Virus record (IMG/VR): IMGVR_UViG_3300036660_000031
Span: 9,148-73,147 of that record
Direction: 5' to 3' (one strand)
Source of the DNA: a virus
Taxonomy: Duplodnaviria > Caudoviricetes
Length of the DNA: 64,000 nucleotides
Position 1 is the stretch's first letter. The number at the start of each line of letters is the position of its first letter. Under the pieces are notes generated by a model. That model saw only the letters and a list, made by a program, of their open reading frames with translations, was not told the origin of the DNA and did no database searches. This document shows, piece by piece, positions 6,583-14,262 of the stretch. Both the position numbers and the translations under genes were made by a program.

Positions 6583-6607
6583 GCCCCTCCTTGGAGGGGC
6601 TTCTTTC
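6583..6607 (+). terminator. rho-independent terminator
   Basis: GCCCCTC-CTTG-GAGGGGC then TTCTTT. Confidence 0.7.
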
Positions 6608-7915: not shown

Positions 7916-8385
7916 ATACGTTCGACCTTGGAATAGAGGTGAAAGAAACTCTATTGGAGCCAGAACACAAAGCATTTCAACGCAATGTGGAAAGCTTAGT
8001 AATACGAAACACTGATGATCCTTCAGTGTTGGCCTTTATGTATAACGGAGTTGTTTTCAACGCTGCTACTGCTAAAAGACCTATTCGTAATGCAATTTCT
8101 CTTTCGTTGCATCTAACAGATGAAATGAAAGATAACGTGCATATGCTAAAGCTGGCAACACGAGATGCTCAAACAGTATGGCAAGCATTGCTTCCACTTG
8201 TAGAAGCGCACGGCCCTCAAAATGGATTACCTGAGAATTTGAAAGCTATCTTGCGATCAAAGTTCTCTCCCCGAACTACTCCTTTTGAGGAAATCATAAA
8301 AGACACTACTGAGTTATTCCTTAAAAATTGGATGGATGCTTCCAATCAATTGGCTTACCTCATTTCACTAAGAATAGTAATTTAA
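7912..8385 (+). CDS. hypothetical protein, N4 gp38 position
   Basis: Coupled to helicase stop and to pol start; synteny. Confidence 0.65.
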   Translation: MNTFDLGIEVKETLLEPEHKAFQRNVESLVIRNTDDPSVLAFMYNGVVFNAATAKRPIRNAISLSLHLTDEMKDNVHMLKLATRDAQTVWQALLPLVEAHGPQNGLPENLKAILRSKFSPRTTPFEEIIKDTTELFLKNWMDASNQLAYLISLRIVI

Positions 8386-10466
8386 TGAGACACATACTTT
8401 TTGGTGATTCCACCATTTCAAAAACAGTCTGCATACTCTCCGTGTACTTAAACAAGGTAGAGATGGTTAAGACTTATATGACTCCTTTTGGGCTAGATGA
8501 AGATGCTTTCATGGCTGTGGACTTGTACCAAGACCCCCAGAAAAAGAAAACTGCTAAGGCCGTACTAAAGGAATATACAACTACTGACTTGCTGCCTTTG
8601 TTCCATGAACAAGACATTAAGTATGTACTGTGTACCGATGCTGAGTACTTTAAAGTGCTCACTGGTGTCATGAAGGTGGACATTAACTTAGGGTATGTAC
8701 TCCCCTGCTCATACGATCCAACTATCCATGTGGCTTACGCCCCATCTTATAAAGCGGTGTTCTATGATCCAGCATCAGCAAAGCCCAAGATTGAAACAGC
8801 TATGCATTCTCTTGGGAACCATATGGAAGGAGGATACAAACCTCCCGGCGACAACATCATCAAGTTTGAAGCCTATCCAAACACTGTGCAAGAAATCAGC
8901 GGTTGGCTGGACAAGCTACTCGCAATGGATTGTCCACTTACCTGTGACATTGAAGCCTTCAGTCTCAAGCACCATACGGCAGGAATCGGTTCCATTTCAT
9001 TCTCTTGGAACCAACATGAAGGAATCGCTTTTCTGGTGGACTATTTACCTACCGGGGATGGTGTCTCGGCTCCCTTTGGTTCACAAATAAGCAATGGGCC
9101 TGTACGTGAACTATTAGCAAACTTCTTCATGCAAATGAAGCACAAGGTGATTTATCACAACATAGCATATGACGCTTATGTGCTGATCTATCAATTGTTC
9201 ATGGCTAACATCATTGACACTGATGGCCTGCTTAAAGGCATCAATATCTTGCTTGGTAAGTGGGACTGTACCAAACTCATTTCCTATTTGGCTACCAACA
9301 CTTGTGCTGGTAACGAGCTAGGTCTGAAGGTCCAAGCCCAGGAATTTGCTGGCAATTGGGCTGTTGAAGAAATCAAAGACATTACAAAGATTGAACCAAC
9401 AAAGCTACTCAAGTACAACTTAGTGGATGCTCTATCTACTTGGTATGTGTATAACAAACACCAACCAACTATGGTAGCTGATCAACAGCTAGAGATATAC
9501 GAGACTCTGTTTCAACCAACTACTGTTGACATCATACAGATGCAGTTAACAGGCATACCTTTGAACATGGTACGTGTGCTAGAAGTAGAGGTAGAACTGC
9601 AAGCTGACTATAACAGTGCTGTTAATCGTATCGCCAATTGTTCCTTGGTTCAAGACTTTGCGTATCAACGCAAGCTCAATTGGATCAAGACAAAGAATGC
9701 TGGCTACAAGAAAAAAGTTATCGGTATGGCTGAAGCTAATGCTGAGTTGCTTAAACCAAAAAATGATGTTCGGTGGAATCCAAACTCATATCCCCAAGTA
9801 CAGGAACTGCTTTATGAAATGATTGGCTTGCCTATCATTGAACTAACTGACAATAAGCAACCAGCGGTTGACGGTGAGACTATTCAGAACCTGAAGAATC
9901 ACACTACAGATCAAAAAGTTTTAGACTTGTTAGACGCATTTTCAGACTACGCTGCTGTAAATAAGATCGTGACGGGATTTATTCCTGCCATGAAGTGTGC
10001 AGCCCTTGGGCCTGATGGATGGCACTATCTGTTCGGTAACTTCAATCTTGGAGGTACGCTATCAGGCAGACTATCTAGTAGTAACCCTAACTTGCAGAAC
10101 CTGCCTGCTAATAAAAAGAAAGGTCAAAAGGATTTTGCAAAGCTAATTAAATCATGTGTTGAAGCCCCTCCCGGATGGTTGTTTGTTGGTCTGGACTTTG
10201 CTTCACTTGAAGATAGAATCTCGGCTCTCACAACAAAAGACCCAAACAAACTAACGGTTTATTTAGAAGGTTTTGACGGCCACAGTTTAAGAGCACAGAC
10301 TTACTTCAGTGAGGCAATGCCAGATATTGAACGTGCCCCCACTGGAGCCAAGTGCTACAAGGCGCTAGTTGGTACACAGGAAATTTACTTTCATGATCAT
10401 GAAACCATCATGTACATGGGGAAAACCGTGACAGGCACTGAACTTGTTCAGCTATTGTCTTTTTAA
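8385..10466 (+). CDS. polA: family A DNA polymerase, N-terminal fragment (UDG-like N-domain, 3'-5' exonuclease, thumb, motif A); lacks motifs B and C
   Basis: ExoI CDIEAF, ExoII YHNIAYD, ExoIII YNLVDA, TLSGRLSSSNPNLQNLP, motif A GLDFASLEDRI; stops TAA 10464-10466 before motif B. Confidence 0.93.
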   Translation: MRHILFGDSTISKTVCILSVYLNKVEMVKTYMTPFGLDEDAFMAVDLYQDPQKKKTAKAVLKEYTTTDLLPLFHEQDIKYVLCTDAEYFKVLTGVMKVDINLGYVLPCSYDPTIHVAYAPSYKAVFYDPASAKPKIETAMHSLGNHMEGGYKPPGDNIIKFEAYPNTVQEISGWLDKLLAMDCPLTCDIEAFSLKHHTAGIGSISFSWNQHEGIAFLVDYLPTGDGVSAPFGSQISNGPVRELLANFFMQMKHKVIYHNIAYDAYVLIYQLFMANIIDTDGLLKGINILLGKWDCTKLISYLATNTCAGNELGLKVQAQEFAGNWAVEEIKDITKIEPTKLLKYNLVDALSTWYVYNKHQPTMVADQQLEIYETLFQPTTVDIIQMQLTGIPLNMVRVLEVEVELQADYNSAVNRIANCSLVQDFAYQRKLNWIKTKNAGYKKKVIGMAEANAELLKPKNDVRWNPNSYPQVQELLYEMIGLPIIELTDNKQPAVDGETIQNLKNHTTDQKVLDLLDAFSDYAAVNKIVTGFIPAMKCAALGPDGWHYLFGNFNLGGTLSGRLSSSNPNLQNLPANKKKGQKDFAKLIKSCVEAPPGWLFVGLDFASLEDRISALTTKDPNKLTVYLEGFDGHSLRAQTYFSEAMPDIERAPTGAKCYKALVGTQEIYFHDHETIMYMGKTVTGTELVQLLSF

Positions 10467-10471
10467 ACAAC

Positions 10472-10496
10472 ACCACCTAACTAGGTGGTTTTTTTA
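10472..10496 (+). terminator. rho-independent terminator directly after the pol N-fragment
   Basis: ACCACCT-AACT-AGGTGGT followed by T7. Confidence 0.8.
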
Positions 10497-10508
10497 GCTT
10501 CACATAAC

Positions 10509-12431
10509 ATGACTATAGAACAAACAATATTTGAAACACCACAACAGGAATACATCGCTAAAAGCAAATACGCCCGGTATTTAGATAAGGAAAAAAGACG
10601 AGAAACATGGGGAGAAACTGTTCAACGATACTTCGATTTTGCCCATGAACACATTGAAGAAAAGTTTCCACAAGCTTCGACTAAATGGCATGAAGTTGAA
10701 GCAGAAATGCAATATCAAGTTTTCTCCTTGAGAACCATGCCCTCAATGCGATTGCTAATGACTGCTGGTGAAGCAGTTAAACGCAACAACATTGCAGCCT
10801 ACAACTGCCACTATGCTGCTATCGACAAGGTACGCAAATTTAGTGACATGCTGTTGATTCTCATGCACGGTACTGGCTCAGGCTTTTCATGTGAACGACA
10901 AGCAATTGCCAAGCTACCGGCAGTACCTGACACAGTGAATAAGACAGACGATGTAATCGTTGTCAAAGATTCCAAAGAAGGTTGGGCAAATGCTTTTAGC
11001 ATTCTGCTTCGCCACCTTTATCAAGGTGCTATTCCAAAAATTGACTACTCCAAAGTACGCCCTAAAGGAGCACGCCTCAAAACTTTTGGTGGTCGTGCTT
11101 CTGGTCCTGAACCACTGAAGAAACTATTTGATTTTGTTAGCAACTTGTTTCTTCATGCGGCTGGCCGTAAGCTGACTTCATTGGAAGTCCATGATATTTG
11201 CTGCTTGATTGCAGACATTGTGGTTGTCGGTGGTGTACGCCGTTCTGCACTTATCAGCCTGAGTAATCTGTCTGATCTGCGTATGCGTGATGCTAAAGAA
11301 GGTCAGTGGTGGACTGCTCACGGACACCGTGGTTTAGCTAACAACTCTGCCGTATATACAGAACGTCCTGAAGTGGAAATCTTCATGGCTGAATGGTTGG
11401 CTCTTATCAAATCCAAGTCTGGTGAGCGTGGAATCTTCAACCGTCAAGCTGCTAGAAAGCAAGCTGCACGTTGGGGCAGACGTTCGGCTGATGCAGATTA
11501 TGGATGCAATCCATGCTCTGAAATTCTGCTGCTGTCTAACGAGATGTGTAATCTTACTGAAGCTGTAATCCGTAAGGGTGACAGTTATGAAGTTATTAAA
11601 GAGAAGATTCGTATAGCAACCATTATGGGTGTCTATCAGTCTTCACTGACAGACTTCAAAGGTGTAGATGCAGAACTGCAACGCAATTGTGAAGAAGAAC
11701 GTCTGCTTGGTGTGTCCATGACAGGCGTGATGGATCACGAAATCCTGAACAACGTAAACCCAACAGCTATTCAATGGCTGGAAGACTTGCGTGATTATTC
11801 CCGTGAAGTGGCAACAGAATGGGCTGGATACTTTGGTATCAATGTCTCTGTGGCTATCACTTGCAATAAGCCTTCAGGCACTGTGGCTCAACTCACTAAT
11901 GCTGGCACTGGCGGTTTACATCCACGATTCGGTAAGCATTACATTCGTACCTATCGTCAAGACAACAAAGACCCATTGACTCAGTTCCTTAAAGAACAAG
12001 GTATTGCATGGGAACCAAGTGTGACTAAGCCAGAGACTGAAACTATTTTCAGCTTTGTAGTGGAGTCTCCTGATGGTGCAGTGATGCGTGATGATCGTAC
12101 TGCGATAGAACAGTTAGAGCATTGGCTCATGTTCCAACGTCACTGGTGTGAGCACAAGCCTTCAATCACTATCTACGTCAAAGACCATGAGTGGCTAGAA
12201 GCTGGTGCATGGGTATACAAACACTTTGATGAAGTCTGTGGAGTAAGCTTCTTGCCTTTTGATAATGGTTCGTATCGTCAAGCACCGTTCCAAGAAATCA
12301 CAAAAGAAGAGTACAGGGAATTCATTGCCAAGTACCCCGGCACGATTGACTGGAGTAAGTTTGTTGAACTCGATGACATGACCGAAGGTGGTCAAGAACT
12401 AGCCTGCACTGGCGGTGCTTGCCTGATCTAA
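10509..12431 (+). CDS. nrdJ: class II (adenosylcobalamin-dependent) ribonucleotide reductase, monomeric type, no ATP cone
   Basis: MPSMR, AYNC, GTGSGFS, GGVRRSALIS, NPCSE, CNLTE, KPSGT, C-terminal ELACTGGAC; no nrdB partner in window. Confidence 0.93.
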   Translation: MTIEQTIFETPQQEYIAKSKYARYLDKEKRRETWGETVQRYFDFAHEHIEEKFPQASTKWHEVEAEMQYQVFSLRTMPSMRLLMTAGEAVKRNNIAAYNCHYAAIDKVRKFSDMLLILMHGTGSGFSCERQAIAKLPAVPDTVNKTDDVIVVKDSKEGWANAFSILLRHLYQGAIPKIDYSKVRPKGARLKTFGGRASGPEPLKKLFDFVSNLFLHAAGRKLTSLEVHDICCLIADIVVVGGVRRSALISLSNLSDLRMRDAKEGQWWTAHGHRGLANNSAVYTERPEVEIFMAEWLALIKSKSGERGIFNRQAARKQAARWGRRSADADYGCNPCSEILLLSNEMCNLTEAVIRKGDSYEVIKEKIRIATIMGVYQSSLTDFKGVDAELQRNCEEERLLGVSMTGVMDHEILNNVNPTAIQWLEDLRDYSREVATEWAGYFGINVSVAITCNKPSGTVAQLTNAGTGGLHPRFGKHYIRTYRQDNKDPLTQFLKEQGIAWEPSVTKPETETIFSFVVESPDGAVMRDDRTAIEQLEHWLMFQRHWCEHKPSITIYVKDHEWLEAGAWVYKHFDEVCGVSFLPFDNGSYRQAPFQEITKEEYREFIAKYPGTIDWSKFVELDDMTEGGQELACTGGACLI

Positions 12432-12441
12432 GCTGAAAGAC

Positions 12442-12473
12442 AAAGCCCGGAACACTCTGGGCTTTGTTTCTTT
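12442..12473 (+). terminator. hairpin/terminator after nrdJ
   Basis: AAAGCCCGG-AACACT-CTGGGCTTT then GTTTCTTT. Confidence 0.6.
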
Positions 12474-12498
12474 GGTTCTAACACTCAAGGAGATACTT

Positions 12499-12693
12499 AT
12501 GGAAATCATTGAACAGGGTCAACTACCAGAAGAAAAAGAGTACACCGCAAAGTGTTCTAACTGCCAAACCAAATTCAAGTTTCAAGCTAAAGAAGCTCTT
12601 GGTCGTAATTGCAATCGTAATGAAAGCTACCTGAGTGTAATTTGCCCTTACTCTAAATGCGGTAAACAAGTGTATGTAGAAGTCCAATGTTAG
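12499..12693 (+). CDS. small Zn-ribbon protein (64 aa)
   Basis: SD AAGGAG; CSNC...CPYSKC cysteine pairs. Confidence 0.75.
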   Translation: MEIIEQGQLPEEKEYTAKCSNCQTKFKFQAKEALGRNCNRNESYLSVICPYSKCGKQVYVEVQC

Positions 12694-13421
12694 TCATTGA
12701 TCAACTTATCGCAGCAGTCACTGAAGTGACTGTTAGTGAGCACGATGTAGCTCGTATCAATTCCATTGAAGTACATTACAAACCCAAACGACAAGATAGC
12801 AAAGCACCAACCTTTGCACTGACATACCAAGGTACTTGGTCAACACTGGTCAAGAACTGTGGCTTCTCACCTCAAGTAGCTAAAGAAATTGAACAAAGAT
12901 ACCACGGACTCTATGCTGTCAGTACTGAGTGGGTACAAAAGAAACTGAACCAAGCAGCTAAGGAAGGGTACATCACAGGTGCATTCGGCCTGAGACTGCG
13001 TACTCCTTTGTTGGCTCAAGTTGTACGGGGTAATCGACAGACTCCCCGTGAAGCAGAGGCTGAAGGCCGTACTGCTGGTAATGCGTTAGGTCAAAGCTGG
13101 TGTTTACTAAACTCACGAGCTTGGGCTGCAACTATGAAAATTGTCCGTGCTAGCCCTTATAGGACGACGATCAGACCTTGTGCCCAAATCCATGACGCTG
13201 GTTATGCTTTGGTTCGTGATGACATTGAACCAATCATGTTTTTGAATGAGCATCTTGTACGTGAAGTTCAATGGAACAATCACCCCGATATTTACCACCC
13301 TGAAGTTGGATTAGGTGGTGAACTCTCTATTTTCTATCCAACATGGAAAGATGAAATTGGTATCCCAAATGGGGCCACTGAAGATGAAATATTTACTATA
13401 GTAAAAAAGGTATTTTCATGA
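12687..13421 (+). CDS. polA: family A DNA polymerase, C-terminal fragment (fingers/motif B, motif C)
   Basis: Motif B RQDSKAPTFALTYQG, GYITGAFGLRLRTP, RTAGNALGQS, motif C QIHDA; ATG overlaps the Zn-ribbon stop. Confidence 0.93.
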   Translation: MLVIDQLIAAVTEVTVSEHDVARINSIEVHYKPKRQDSKAPTFALTYQGTWSTLVKNCGFSPQVAKEIEQRYHGLYAVSTEWVQKKLNQAAKEGYITGAFGLRLRTPLLAQVVRGNRQTPREAEAEGRTAGNALGQSWCLLNSRAWAATMKIVRASPYRTTIRPCAQIHDAGYALVRDDIEPIMFLNEHLVREVQWNNHPDIYHPEVGLGGELSIFYPTWKDEIGIPNGATEDEIFTIVKKVFS

Positions 13422-13549
13422 AGCAATTTATAAAAGATAACGTGGCATTCTGCGTGCTGCTTACTTGTGCTGCTATCGCTTTGATAGTATTCAGCCAAGT
13501 CATGACAGCAATTGGTATCCTCGTTGTCGCCACATTCACGTTAAAATAA
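13418..13549 (+). CDS. small membrane protein (43 aa)
   Basis: Own translation MKQFIKDNVAFCVLLTCAAIALIVFSQVMTAIGILVVATFTLK; ATGA overlap with pol stop. Confidence 0.55.
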   Translation: MKQFIKDNVAFCVLLTCAAIALIVFSQVMTAIGILVVATFTLK

Positions 13550-13571
13550 CTGTCTACACCCATCCCCGCAC

Positions 13572-13595
13572 AGGAGCCAATTGGCTCCTTTTCTT
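13572..13595 (+). terminator. terminator-like palindrome
   Basis: AGGAGCC-AATT-GGCTCCT then TTTCTT. Confidence 0.6.
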
Positions 13596-13618
13596 CCCTC
13601 TGTACTTAGGAAAATCAT

Positions 13619-13939
13619 ATGATTGAAAAAGCACCCGTCGATGAGTCTATGACTATGCAGCATTACTTCTTGCTTGCTGGCAGTGTCGCCTATCGAGTCC
13701 CATCAGAAAATGGTGAAAACACTATTGGCGTGATTACGCTTAATGGCATCATCACCACTGATAACCAAGCACTTCGCATGAGTGATCTGGGCAAAGCTCA
13801 GAAAGTTTTGCAACACCACTTCCGTCTTAAAACAAACGACAGCACCCTTGAAATTGTTGACGTGGTTCTGGTAAACGTGTTCTATCTGGGCTTCCAGTCC
13901 CCGATGATGTTCAACGATCTTGGAGTCCCGATTCAATAA
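13619..13939 (+). CDS. hypothetical protein, N4 gp40 position
   Basis: SD AGGA; synteny. Confidence 0.65.
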   Translation: MIEKAPVDESMTMQHYFLLAGSVAYRVPSENGENTIGVITLNGIITTDNQALRMSDLGKAQKVLQHHFRLKTNDSTLEIVDVVLVNVFYLGFQSPMMFNDLGVPIQ

Positions 13940-14262
13940 TGATTACTGAACCAAAGGTATTGACTGGTGGCAAGGTCAATTACTATTTAGTTAAAGTAAC
14001 TCATCCTCAGCGTGAAGAACAACCTTCTTATCAAGCGGAATGCGAAGACATTATTCGTGCTCTGAAAATGACGTTTGATGAGGGTTGTGAATTCAAAGCT
14101 ATTTGGCGTACTGCTTCTGCCCGTATAGGCAATGGCAAAGCAGGCCAAGGTGCTATGTATGACGCTGAGAAACGAGTCCACTATGCCGGTGCCTGTCTCC
14201 GTCAATATCAACAAGACAAGATACGGGAAGAATCTACCCCTAAACAGGAGTTAATCAAATGA
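13939..14262 (+). CDS. DUF3310-like protein (T7 gp1.7-related)
   Basis: NYY...ECEDIIRALKMTFDEGCEFKAIWR pattern. Confidence 0.65.
   Translation: MITEPKVLTGGKVNYYLVKVTHPQREEQPSYQAECEDIIRALKMTFDEGCEFKAIWRTASARIGNGKAGQGAMYDAEKRVHYAGACLRQYQQDKIREESTPKQELIK

What the first reader, a model, noticed from the sequence alone, without database searches (positions are those of the whole stretch)
8385..13421. DNA polymerase gene split in two by a complete class II ribonucleotide reductase gene, with no homing endonuclease
Seen: the only replicative polymerase is split. Exo I-III and catalytic motif A (DFASLE, about 10194) are in 8385-10466, while motif B (RQDSK..TY, about 12789) and motif C (QIHDA, about 13190) are in 12687-13421. 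The 2.2-kb gap holds a terminator, an intact nrdJ, a hairpin and a Zn-ribbon ORF. Both halves look intact, with no internal stops or motif decay. Known: PolA needs the motif A and motif C aspartates in one active site. Described fractured phage genes (e.g. Aeh1 nrdA split by mobE; split-intein fractured genes) are broken by homing endonucleases. Inference: a heterodimeric PolA assembles in trans across its palm, and the dNTP-supply enzyme sits inside the polymerase locus. This could be a co-inherited Pol-RNR module, or even a physical complex that channels dNTPs.
Basis: partly seen in the sequence, partly recalled or inferred. Interest (0 to 1): 0.88.

Follow-up and report, generated by a model that had tools for sequence, protein, structure and literature searches.

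The report
Split phage DNA polymerase carrying nrdJ
This uncultured N4-like phage encodes its only DNA polymerase as two separate genes broken at the tip of the fingers domain, a break shared by many uncultured relatives, and the ribonucleotide reductase between the halves is cargo of one lineage and not an obligate partner of the polymerase.

Summary
The only family A polymerase of this 73-kb N4-like phage is encoded as 8385-10466 (exonuclease, thumb, motif A) and 12687-13421 (motifs B and C). Between them lie a terminator hairpin, an intact monomeric class II reductase gene (nrdJ), a second hairpin and a 64-aa zinc-ribbon ORF.

The break is at the fingers tip, not in the palm. No polymerase residue is lost. 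The N-half gains a 44-aa tail and the C-half a roughly 17-23-aa head that unsplit enzymes lack.

The same break occurs in at least 15 independent contigs. Their gaps are empty (47-180 nt) or hold unknown small ORFs, a glutaredoxin, an HNH endonuclease, or nrdJ. About 1,400 proteins of C-half size match the C-half. The nrdJ version defines one clade, and all three genes in it are under strong purifying selection (dN/dS 0.06-0.10). No intron or intein signal was found.

Best reading: an inherited "genes-in-pieces" two-subunit polymerase, probably made by a homing endonuclease that has since been lost. The tails probably clasp the halves together, and the gap serves as an insertion site for accessory genes. 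A Pol-RNR complex has no support.

This scan has noted split N4-like polymerases on other DNA. I found no published description. It is a new variant of a known kind.

The parts
8385..10466 (+). PolA N-half (gp39-N): 3'-5' exonuclease, thumb, palm motif A and the first fingers helices, then a tail
   Evidence: Pfam DNA_pol_A positions 21-202, PHROG 17; aligns to residues 1-649 of unsplit Axy13 and DFL12phi1 polymerases
10332..10463 (+). 44-aa C-terminal tail of the N-half, absent from unsplit polymerases; predicted four short strands plus a helix
   Evidence: Alignments A1 and A4; AF2 model of the N-half, strands 657-683 and helix 684-692, pLDDT 63-83; conserved in L013, L014, L008 and L024
10472..10496 (+). 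Terminator-like hairpin (7-bp stem) plus T7, directly after the N-half stop
   Evidence: Same position but different stem sequence in L013, L014 and L006. A hairpin also follows the N-half stop in the empty-gap relatives L009, L023 and L025
10509..12431 (+). nrdJ, a monomeric class II (RTPR-like) ribonucleotide reductase, 640 aa, intact
   Evidence: PHROG 367 E 2e-169 over its full length; Pfam RNR-II_ins_dom, RNR_Alpha and barrel; best solved structure 1L1L, E 2e-49; 83-86% identical orthologues in the same position in L013-L016
12438..12479 (+). Second hairpin (14 pairs) with a T-rich tail after nrdJ, followed by the Shine-Dalgarno AAGGAG at 12487-12492
   Evidence: conserved in L013, L014 and L006 (A3)
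12499..12693 (+). 64-aa six-cysteine zinc-ribbon ORF (PHROG 2834, function unknown), found only in this phage among the nrdJ clade
   Evidence: A3 shows it sits on the Shine-Dalgarno sequence that serves the C-half in relatives, and its first six codons resemble the C-half's. Homologues occur in Burkholderia, Psychrobacter and Rhizobium phages
12687..13421 (+). PolA C-half (gp39-C): head extension, fingers O-helix (motif B), palm motif C and the C-terminus
   Evidence: Pfam DNA_pol_A positions 203-305, PHROG 2573 and 17; 68% identical to the C-terminal 229 residues of the unsplit Axy13 polymerase
12687..12755 (+). N-terminal head of the C-half (23 aa). The first 17 or so residues have no counterpart in unsplit enzymes
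   Evidence: The head is conserved as a pattern across 85 C-half clusters. In the model of the continuous-insert enzyme P0235 the matching segment is a strand followed by a helix

Best explanation
The replicative family A polymerase is an inherited 'genes-in-pieces' enzyme. Two separately translated polypeptides re-form one polymerase. The break sits in a surface mini-domain at the fingers tip. The N-half carries motif A and ends in a small beta-rich tail. The C-half begins with a strand-plus-helix head and carries motifs B and C. The tail and head most likely pair as a clasp that holds the halves together (inferred). The fracture was most likely made by a free-standing HNH homing endonuclease cassette that also brought the tails. 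The endonuclease has since been lost from this lineage (inferred from relatives). The endonuclease-free gap, bounded by a hairpin and by the C-half's ribosome-binding site, then took up accessory genes. nrdJ entered once in the ancestor of this clade. The zinc-ribbon ORF entered later, in this phage only, and took over the C-half's ribosome-binding site, so the C-half is now translated by stop-start coupling. nrdJ supplies deoxynucleotides like any phage-borne reductase. Its position reflects where DNA could be inserted, not a requirement of the polymerase.
For: Shown: the Pfam profile is divided exactly at 202/203, with no polymerase residue lost and extra tail and head added. These are the only PolA matches in the genome. 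The same order recurs in five further assemblies with halves 73-79% and nrdJ 83-86% identical. dN/dS is 0.06-0.10 for the N-half, nrdJ and the C-half, with dS 0.9-2.6. The same break occurs with an empty gap (L009/L010, L023, L025, L109, L111), unknown ORFs (L008, L024), a glutaredoxin (L108) and an HNH (L110). 1,429 proteins in the C-half size range match the C-half, against 2,373 full-length relatives. Of the 120 best matches in that size range, 85 clusters have this break and head. HNH genes make other breaks in the same gene (L026, L006, L019, L110). The HNH-linked tail at the neighbouring site resembles this tail (8 of 20 identical, E 5e-4). Tail type and head type co-vary in 8 of 8 loci. 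A full-length enzyme with the tail and head fused (P0235) folds at pLDDT 90 with the insert as hairpin, loop, strand and helix, and the break falls in the loop. There is no Rfam intron and no intein or Hint match even at E<=10. The next nearest nrdJ is only 62% identical. The zinc-ribbon ORF sits on the Shine-Dalgarno sequence and start that serve the C-half in relatives. Precedent: the Aeh1 NrdA tails are essential for activity (PMC3045599); gene 43 of T4-related phages is split with or without an endonuclease (PMC2988022); the PhiKZ split PolB is a stable 1:1 complex (PMC13648687).
Against: No direct evidence of assembly or activity exists. No endonuclease or remnant is present in this gap, and only 1 of about 13 lineages examined has an HNH at this exact site. 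An endonuclease origin of this break is therefore an inference. The fused-insert enzymes (P0235, P0102) could be ancestral rather than re-fused. In that case the mini-domain came first and the break arose in another way. The tail similarity between sites is short and weak. Reduction-related cargo turns up twice (nrdJ, glutaredoxin), which a purely neutral cargo model does not predict, although it does not forbid it.
Confidence: 0.75

Rival explanations
1. Polymerase and reductase form a selected functional module: they are co-inherited and co-expressed, or NrdJ physically docks on the two-part polymerase and channels dNTPs.
For: nrdJ has stayed between the halves through dS of at least 0.9 under purifying selection. 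The reductase is of the RTPR type, and the solved RTPR reduces triphosphates, so it could feed a polymerase directly. An unrelated lineage carries a glutaredoxin in the same gap. An unchecked note of this scan reports RNR genes between the halves of a split PolB.
Against: Most lineages with this break have no reductase in the gap, and several have an empty gap. Terminator-like hairpins flank nrdJ on both sides, which suggests a self-contained cassette. In other phage groups the nearest nrdJ relatives lie a few kb from PolA as ordinary neighbours in the replication module. No interaction test could be run.
Confidence: 0.1
2. The break did not come from an endonuclease. A beta mini-domain was first inserted at the fingers tip, as in P0235. 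Later the gene was cut within that insert by ordinary illegitimate insertion of a terminator-bearing gene cassette (a moron), and HNH genes arrived afterwards.
For: Full-length and partial enzymes with a continuous insert exist (P0235, P0102). Most gaps at this site lack any nuclease. Both the end of the N-tail and the C-head seem to encode the same strand-helix segment, as an insertion with a junction duplication would leave (by eye).
Against: P0235 and P0102 nest among split forms in the C-half tree, as expected for re-fusion, although that tree is poorly resolved. The split state is scattered, with at least 21 changes on 181 leaves, which fits horizontal spread by homing. An HNH sits in this gap in L110. 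A similar tail comes with an HNH at the next site.
Confidence: 0.2
3. A single polymerase chain is restored by RNA splicing, protein trans-splicing or translational recoding.
For: Phage polymerase genes often host introns and inteins. The N-tail of this type has a conserved cysteine.
Against: There is no Rfam intron or ribozyme hit in 8000-14000 at E<=1. There is no intein or Hint match in the tails at E<=10. The tail plus head total about 60 aa, and the head does not end in the His-Asn plus Cys/Ser/Thr of inteins. Relatives with 47-60-nt gaps leave no room for a ribozyme. The two halves are 2.2 kb apart, each with its own stop and start.
Confidence: 0.03
4. Artefact or decay: a chimeric assembly, or a dying polymerase gene in a phage that relies on another polymerase.
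For: The record is a metagenome assembly.
Against: Independent assemblies from other samples share the arrangement. The genome is complete with terminal repeats. All motifs are intact and dN/dS is below 0.1. No other polymerase is present in the genome.
Confidence: 0.02

Closest known systems
Aeromonas phage Aeh1 nrdA-a / mobE / nrdA-b, the 'genes-in-pieces' reductase with assembly tails (Friedrich 2007; Crona 2010, PMC3045599)
   Same: An essential phage enzyme is cut into two separately translated genes within a conserved region. Unique C- and N-terminal tails at the junction are absent from unsplit homologues. There is no RNA or protein splicing.
   Different: Here the enzyme is a family A polymerase, not NrdA. 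No endonuclease remains in the gap, and a 1.9-kb metabolic gene occupies it instead. The split state is common to many lineages rather than a single phage. The role of the tails is untested.
gp43A/gp43B split family B polymerase of T4-related Aeromonas phages 25 and 44RR (Petrov 2010, as reviewed in PMC2988022)
   Same: A replicative phage polymerase is encoded as two genes. Some phages have only an untranslated intercistronic spacer between the halves, and others have an endonuclease gene there. This mirrors the empty and occupied gaps seen here.
   Different: The polymerase family differs (B versus A), as does the phage group. Cargo as large as an intact reductase gene is not mentioned in the review I read.
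HNH-split N4-like polymerases at neighbouring sites
   Same: The same gene family is cut, the pieces are separately translated, and similar tail and head extensions are present.
   Different: Those breaks lie before motif A or before the GYDGH helix and still hold the endonuclease. The window's break is at the fingers tip and holds none.
Split PolA genes noted in MEP401-type OM43 phages and in an uncultured cyanophage lineage (PMC10580990; bioRxiv 10.1101/325100)
   Same: [quoted passage not shown]
   Different: These are different phage families. The break points and tails are not described and no mechanism has been studied. I did not test whether the break site is homologous.
Fractured genes with split inteins (Dassa 2009, PMC2677866)
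   Same: The halves of a replication gene are separated by an inserted gene.
   Different: Those halves carry split-intein fragments and are ligated by trans-splicing. No intein fragment is detectable here.
PhiKZ DNAP-N/DNAP-C split family B polymerase (PMC13648687)
   Same: It shows experimentally that a phage replicative polymerase can work as a stable 1:1 complex of two gene products.
   Different: Family B, an unrelated phage, and a different break.

Membership tests
Family A DNA polymerase, N4 gp39-like | 3'-5' exonuclease domain plus polymerase motifs A, B and C | tested here: met
   Pfam DNA_pol_A positions 21-202 and 203-305 on two ORFs. The exonuclease match is weak (E 0.002) but PHROG 17 is full length. 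All motifs are invariant in A4 and A5.
Family A DNA polymerase, N4 gp39-like | Synteny helicase, small ORF, polymerase, gp42-like exonuclease, gp43-like primase | tested here: met
Genes-in-pieces made by a free-standing homing endonuclease (Aeh1 nrdA type) | A gene that is contiguous in relatives is present as two ORFs with their own stop and start | tested here: met
Genes-in-pieces made by a free-standing homing endonuclease (Aeh1 nrdA type) | Homing endonuclease gene in the gap | tested here: not met
   No nuclease family matches any gap ORF of the window. The feature is met only in relatives: L110 at this site, and L026, L006 and L019 at other sites.
Genes-in-pieces made by a free-standing homing endonuclease (Aeh1 nrdA type) | Junction tails absent from unsplit homologues | tested here: met
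   A 44-aa tail and a 17-23-aa head. 114 of the 120 full-length relatives listed were read across the junction (92, 22); only one (P0235) carries an insert there.
Genes-in-pieces made by a free-standing homing endonuclease (Aeh1 nrdA type) | Tails required for assembly or activity | not testable with these tools
This needs biochemistry.
Group I or II intron-interrupted gene | Ribozyme core in the intervening DNA | tested here: not met
   Rfam at E<=1 over 8000-14000 gave only a chance miRNA hit on the opposite strand. The gaps of relatives are 47-60 nt.
Intein or split-intein fractured gene | Hint-domain blocks at the junction (N-terminal Cys/Ser; C-terminal His-Asn followed by Cys/Ser/Thr) | tested here: not met
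   No Pfam match at E<=10 for tails or heads. Head ends do not fit the pattern.
Class II (B12-dependent) monomeric ribonucleotide reductase, RTPR-like | Alpha domain, class II insertion domain, ten-stranded barrel, C-terminal cysteine pair | tested here: met
   PF17975, PF21995 and PF02867 all above cut-off. PDB 1L1L at E 2e-49. The C-terminus carries Cys-x4-Cys in the reading frame of 10509-12431 (sequence).
Class II (B12-dependent) monomeric ribonucleotide reductase, RTPR-like | Cobalamin dependence and substrate (NTP or NDP) | not testable with these tools
   Needs an enzyme assay.

The most novel reading that the evidence does not exclude
The tail and head are a portable two-part clasp delivered by homing endonucleases. 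Once the endonuclease is lost, the clasped break becomes a protected 'cargo bay' inside an essential gene. That bay preferentially retains dNTP-supply genes (nrdJ here, a glutaredoxin in L108). Their expression, and perhaps their location at the replisome, would then be tied to the two polymerase subunits.
Probability: 0.12. Interest if true: 0.75.

Novelty: new variant of a known kind. Interest (0 to 1): 0.5.

Why it matters
It shows that a natural two-subunit family A polymerase is common among uncultured N4-like phages. C-half-sized relatives are more than half as numerous as full-length ones in a 5.8-billion-protein collection, yet I found none among about 50,000 deposited phage genomes. 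That gives polymerase biochemists a natural, selection-tested split site at the fingers tip, together with its own candidate clasp peptides. Both are directly testable and potentially useful for engineered split polymerases. For phage evolution it offers a series of stages of one element's life: endonuclease present, gap empty, gap filled with cargo, and tail and head apparently re-fused. It also shows how a fracture in an essential gene can become a stable insertion site for metabolic genes. Finally, it warns annotators that 'DNA polymerase' calls of about 245 and 690 aa in such contigs are halves of one enzyme.

Tried and rejected
3. Megablast of 8300-13500 against deposited phages: no match.
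4. tblastn of the type A and type B tails against 50,697 phage records: only the conserved polymerase part aligned, and no record covered at least 80% of the query. One apparent hit beside an 'endonuclease' (Klebsiella phage K60PH164C1) was a record full of pseudogene calls and was set aside.
5. The idea that the tails are a degenerate split intein: the conserved Cys/Ala position and a GD-T-V...DG pattern looked intein-like by eye, but no Hint or intein profile matched at E<=10, and the combined length of about 60 aa is too short. Dropped.
6. Whether nrdJ sits inside PolA in the phages with the nearest nrdJ genes (MEP402, HMO-2011, PaMx25, and 76 further IMG/VR loci beyond this clade's four): it does not. 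It is an ordinary neighbour or unlinked.
7. The C-half tree (FastTree, about 200 columns) gives at least 21 changes between split and unsplit states. Resolution is low, so I use it only to say the state is scattered, not to count events.
8. Source names for the NCBI-derived split proteins: none are recorded.
9. Literature searches for a split N4-like polymerase or nrdJ in its gap found nothing specific. Only open-access text was searched.


Full report
WHAT IS THERE. The window is 64 kb of a complete 73,147-bp virus record with terminal repeats. Its replication module has the N4-like order: helicase, small ORF, polymerase, small ORFs, gp42-like exonuclease, gp43-like primase. The polymerase is in two ORFs. 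ORF 8385-10466 (693 aa) matches Pfam DNA_pol_A positions 21-202 of 381, and ORF 12687-13421 (244 aa) matches positions 203-305. A whole-genome scan finds only these two PolA matches.

The 2.2-kb gap holds the following features:
- a 7-bp hairpin followed by seven T (10472-10496);
- nrdJ (10509-12431);
- a 14-pair hairpin with a T-rich tail (12438-12479);
- a Shine-Dalgarno sequence;
- a 64-aa six-cysteine zinc-ribbon ORF (12499-12693), whose stop overlaps the C-half start codon.

WHERE THE BREAK IS. I aligned both halves to the unsplit polymerases of Achromobacter phage Axy13 and Dinoroseobacter phage DFL12phi1. Nothing is missing. Homology of the N-half ends 45 residues after the motif A aspartate. 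Homology of the C-half resumes at the INSI helix, 11 residues before the motif B arginine. The break is therefore at the fingers tip, not in the palm, although motifs A and C do end up on different chains. The N-half then runs on for 44 extra residues. The C-half begins with about 17 residues that unsplit enzymes lack.

IT IS REAL AND INHERITED. Five further assembled phages have the same order of N-half, nrdJ and C-half: IMG/VR contigs L013, L014/L016 and L015, and the ENA/Logan contigs L006/L007. Their halves are 73-79% identical to the window's and their nrdJ is 83-86% identical. dN/dS is 0.06-0.10 for each of the three genes, at dS of about 0.9 between L013 and L014 and above 1.4 against the window. 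Both hairpins keep their positions while their stem sequences differ. This rules out mis-assembly and decay.

THE BREAK IS MUCH WIDER THAN THE nrdJ CLADE. A search limited to proteins of similar length found 1,429 relatives of the C-half. A search limited to longer proteins found 2,373 full-length ones. Of the 120 best matches of similar length, 85 clusters start with the same kind of head just before the INSI helix.

I fetched contexts for 13 lineages with this break:
- Empty gap of 47-180 nt: L009/L010, L023, L025, L109, L111.
- Six unknown small ORFs: L008.
- Three unknown ORFs: L024.
- Four ORFs including a glutaredoxin: L108.
- An HNH_3 endonuclease overlapping both pieces: L110.
- nrdJ: L013 to L016.
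- nrdJ carrying a LAGLIDADG intein: L006/L007.
- nrdJ plus the zinc-ribbon ORF: the window.

A hairpin directly after the N-half stop is present even in three of the empty gaps checked (L009, L023, L025). On a low-resolution tree of the C-half core, the split state is scattered among unsplit enzymes, with at least 21 changes on 181 leaves. I found no example among 50,697 deposited phage genomes, using short tail queries. The NCBI-derived examples carry no names.

ENDONUCLEASES DO FRACTURE THIS GENE. HNH genes sit at two other break sites. One lies before the GYDGH helix (L026, and the extra break in L006). The other lies before motif A (L019, L110). In L006 and L110 the polymerase is thus in three pieces. 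The tail that accompanies the HNH in L026 resembles the window's tail (8 of 20 identical, E 5e-4 for the pair). It also shows the same alternation of short strands ending in a helix. This evidence is suggestive, not strong.

THE TAILS. Two tail types exist, and each goes with its own head type in all eight loci compared. One has a conserved cysteine (window, L013, L014, L008, L024). The other has alanine at that position (L009, L023, L025).

One full-length enzyme (P0235, 908 aa) and one C-terminal piece (P0102) carry tail and head fused as a continuous 36-42-aa insert. I could read the junction in 114 of the 120 full-length relatives listed, and the other 113 are the short form. An AlphaFold model of P0235 (pLDDT 90) shows the insert as a beta-hairpin (649-662), a loop (663-672), a third strand (673-675) and then the INSI helix. 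pLDDT in the insert is 61-79. The natural break falls in the loop. In split enzymes the hairpin therefore belongs to the N-half and the third strand and helix to the C-half. This suggests a sheet completed across the two chains.

The window's N-half, folded alone with a thin alignment, gives a poor palm. Its tail nevertheless forms four strands and a helix at pLDDT 63-83. By eye, the end of the N-tail and the C-head seem to encode the same strand-helix segment twice, which hints at a junction duplication.

WHAT IT IS NOT. No intron or ribozyme family matches 8000-14000 at E<=1. No intein or Hint profile matches either half, or the isolated tails and heads at E<=10. Relatives with 47-60-nt gaps leave no room for a ribozyme.

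THE CARGO. The reductase is full length against PHROG 367 (E 2e-169). It has the alpha, class II insertion and barrel domains. Its best solved relative is the monomeric L. leichmannii triphosphate reductase 1L1L (E 2e-49). Outside this clade the nearest nrdJ is 62% identical, and most are 52-57%. In those phages nrdJ is an ordinary member of the replication module or unlinked to PolA. This points to one acquisition in the clade's ancestor. nrdJ is somewhat less diverged than the flanking halves (86% against 75-79% identity; dS 1.4 against 2.6 or saturated). I did not explain this.

The zinc-ribbon ORF is unique to the window. It sits on the Shine-Dalgarno sequence and start that serve the C-half in L013, L014 and L006. 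Its first six codons resemble the C-half's first six. It therefore inserted at the very start of the C-half, which is now translated by stop-start overlap. Its homologues are unannotated ORFs in Burkholderia jumbo phages, a Psychrobacter phage and a Rhizobium phage.

MECHANISM, WITH STATUS.
- Shown: the enzyme is made from two genes, and the arrangement is old and selected. The break is shared widely and its gap content varies. No splicing signal is detectable.
- Inferred, likely: the halves assemble non-covalently, helped by the tail and head. The precedents are the Aeh1 NrdA tails (PMC3045599) and the PhiKZ split PolB complex (PMC13648687).
- Inferred, fairly likely: an HNH cassette made the break and brought the tails. 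The endonuclease was then lost and the gap became an insertion site.
- Not supported: nrdJ is needed by, or bound to, the polymerase.

COMPARISON AND NOVELTY. The kind is known: fragmented phage genes reassembled through element-derived tails (Aeh1 nrdA), and polymerase gene 43 of T4-related phages split with either a bare spacer or an endonuclease (PMC2988022). Split PolA genes have been mentioned in passing for OM43 phages and a cyanophage lineage (PMC10580990; 10.1101/325100). HNH-split genes in N4-like phages have been reported for RNAP2 and an ATPase (PMC3915230, PMC5418858). I found no paper on a split N4-like polymerase or on nrdJ within one.

Earlier notes of this scan report HNH-split and cargo-bearing N4-like polymerases in other genomes, so the scan has seen the phenomenon before on other DNA. 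What is new here is the endonuclease-free fingers-tip break as a common state of uncultured N4-like phages. Also new are its candidate clasp and its use as a site holding a complete, selected metabolic gene. I class it as a new variant of a known kind, with interest 0.5.

Noticed in passing
L015:2636-2683 (IMGVR_UViG_3300048691_000011): In this nrdJ-clade relative the C-half is interrupted inside motif B by a 48-nt insert. The insert has three in-frame stops and a 9-bp hairpin, and identical ACC codons stand just before it and at its end. After it the frame resumes exactly. This could be a gene-60-like translational bypass, a tiny hairpin element with a 3-bp target duplication, or a defective variant. 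The insert is unique in IMG/VR.
   Followed up: partly
L006:270-6735: The closest nrdJ-bearing relative from another sample has its polymerase in three pieces: 671 aa, HNH_3, an 84-aa middle piece, then nrdJ, then the C-half. Its nrdJ carries a LAGLIDADG intein.
   Followed up: partly
L110:1644-5744: Another lineage also has the polymerase in three pieces with two HNH_3 genes. The 99-aa middle piece starts exactly at motif A. Two Tad2-like genes follow the C-half.
   Followed up: partly
L108:4554-4997: A glutaredoxin-domain ORF is the last of four cargo genes in the same polymerase gap of an unrelated lineage. This is a second redox or dNTP-related gene at this site.
   Followed up: no
window 12499-12693: The six-cysteine zinc-ribbon ORF took over the C-half's ribosome-binding site and resembles its first six codons. 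Its homologues are unannotated ORFs in Burkholderia phages BcepSauron and BcepSaruman, Psychrobacter phage pOW20-A and a Rhizobium phage. Its position right after nrdJ recalls a scan note on free-standing RNR-type zinc fingers. I did not test this.
   Followed up: partly
P0235 and P0102 (metagenome proteins): These enzymes have the tail and head fused in frame as a 36-42-aa insert at the fingers tip. They may be re-fused former splits or the ancestral state.
   Followed up: partly
window 10509-12431 compared with 8385-10466 and 12687-13421: nrdJ is less diverged from L013 (86% aa, dS 1.4) than the polymerase halves around it (75-79% aa, dS 2.6 or saturated). This could reflect later exchange of nrdJ within the clade or stronger codon constraint.
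   Followed up: no
L111:4500-4939: The N-part of this polymerase changes frame just before motif A in a contig of 2.2x coverage. This is probably an assembly error, not a further break.
   Followed up: partly
window 13572-13589 and 6583-6600: Two further strong terminator-like hairpins lie in the replication module. In this 10-kb stretch sigma-70-like promoter matches are far fewer than in shuffles (4 against 17.4), as expected for a phage that uses its own RNA polymerases.
   Followed up: no
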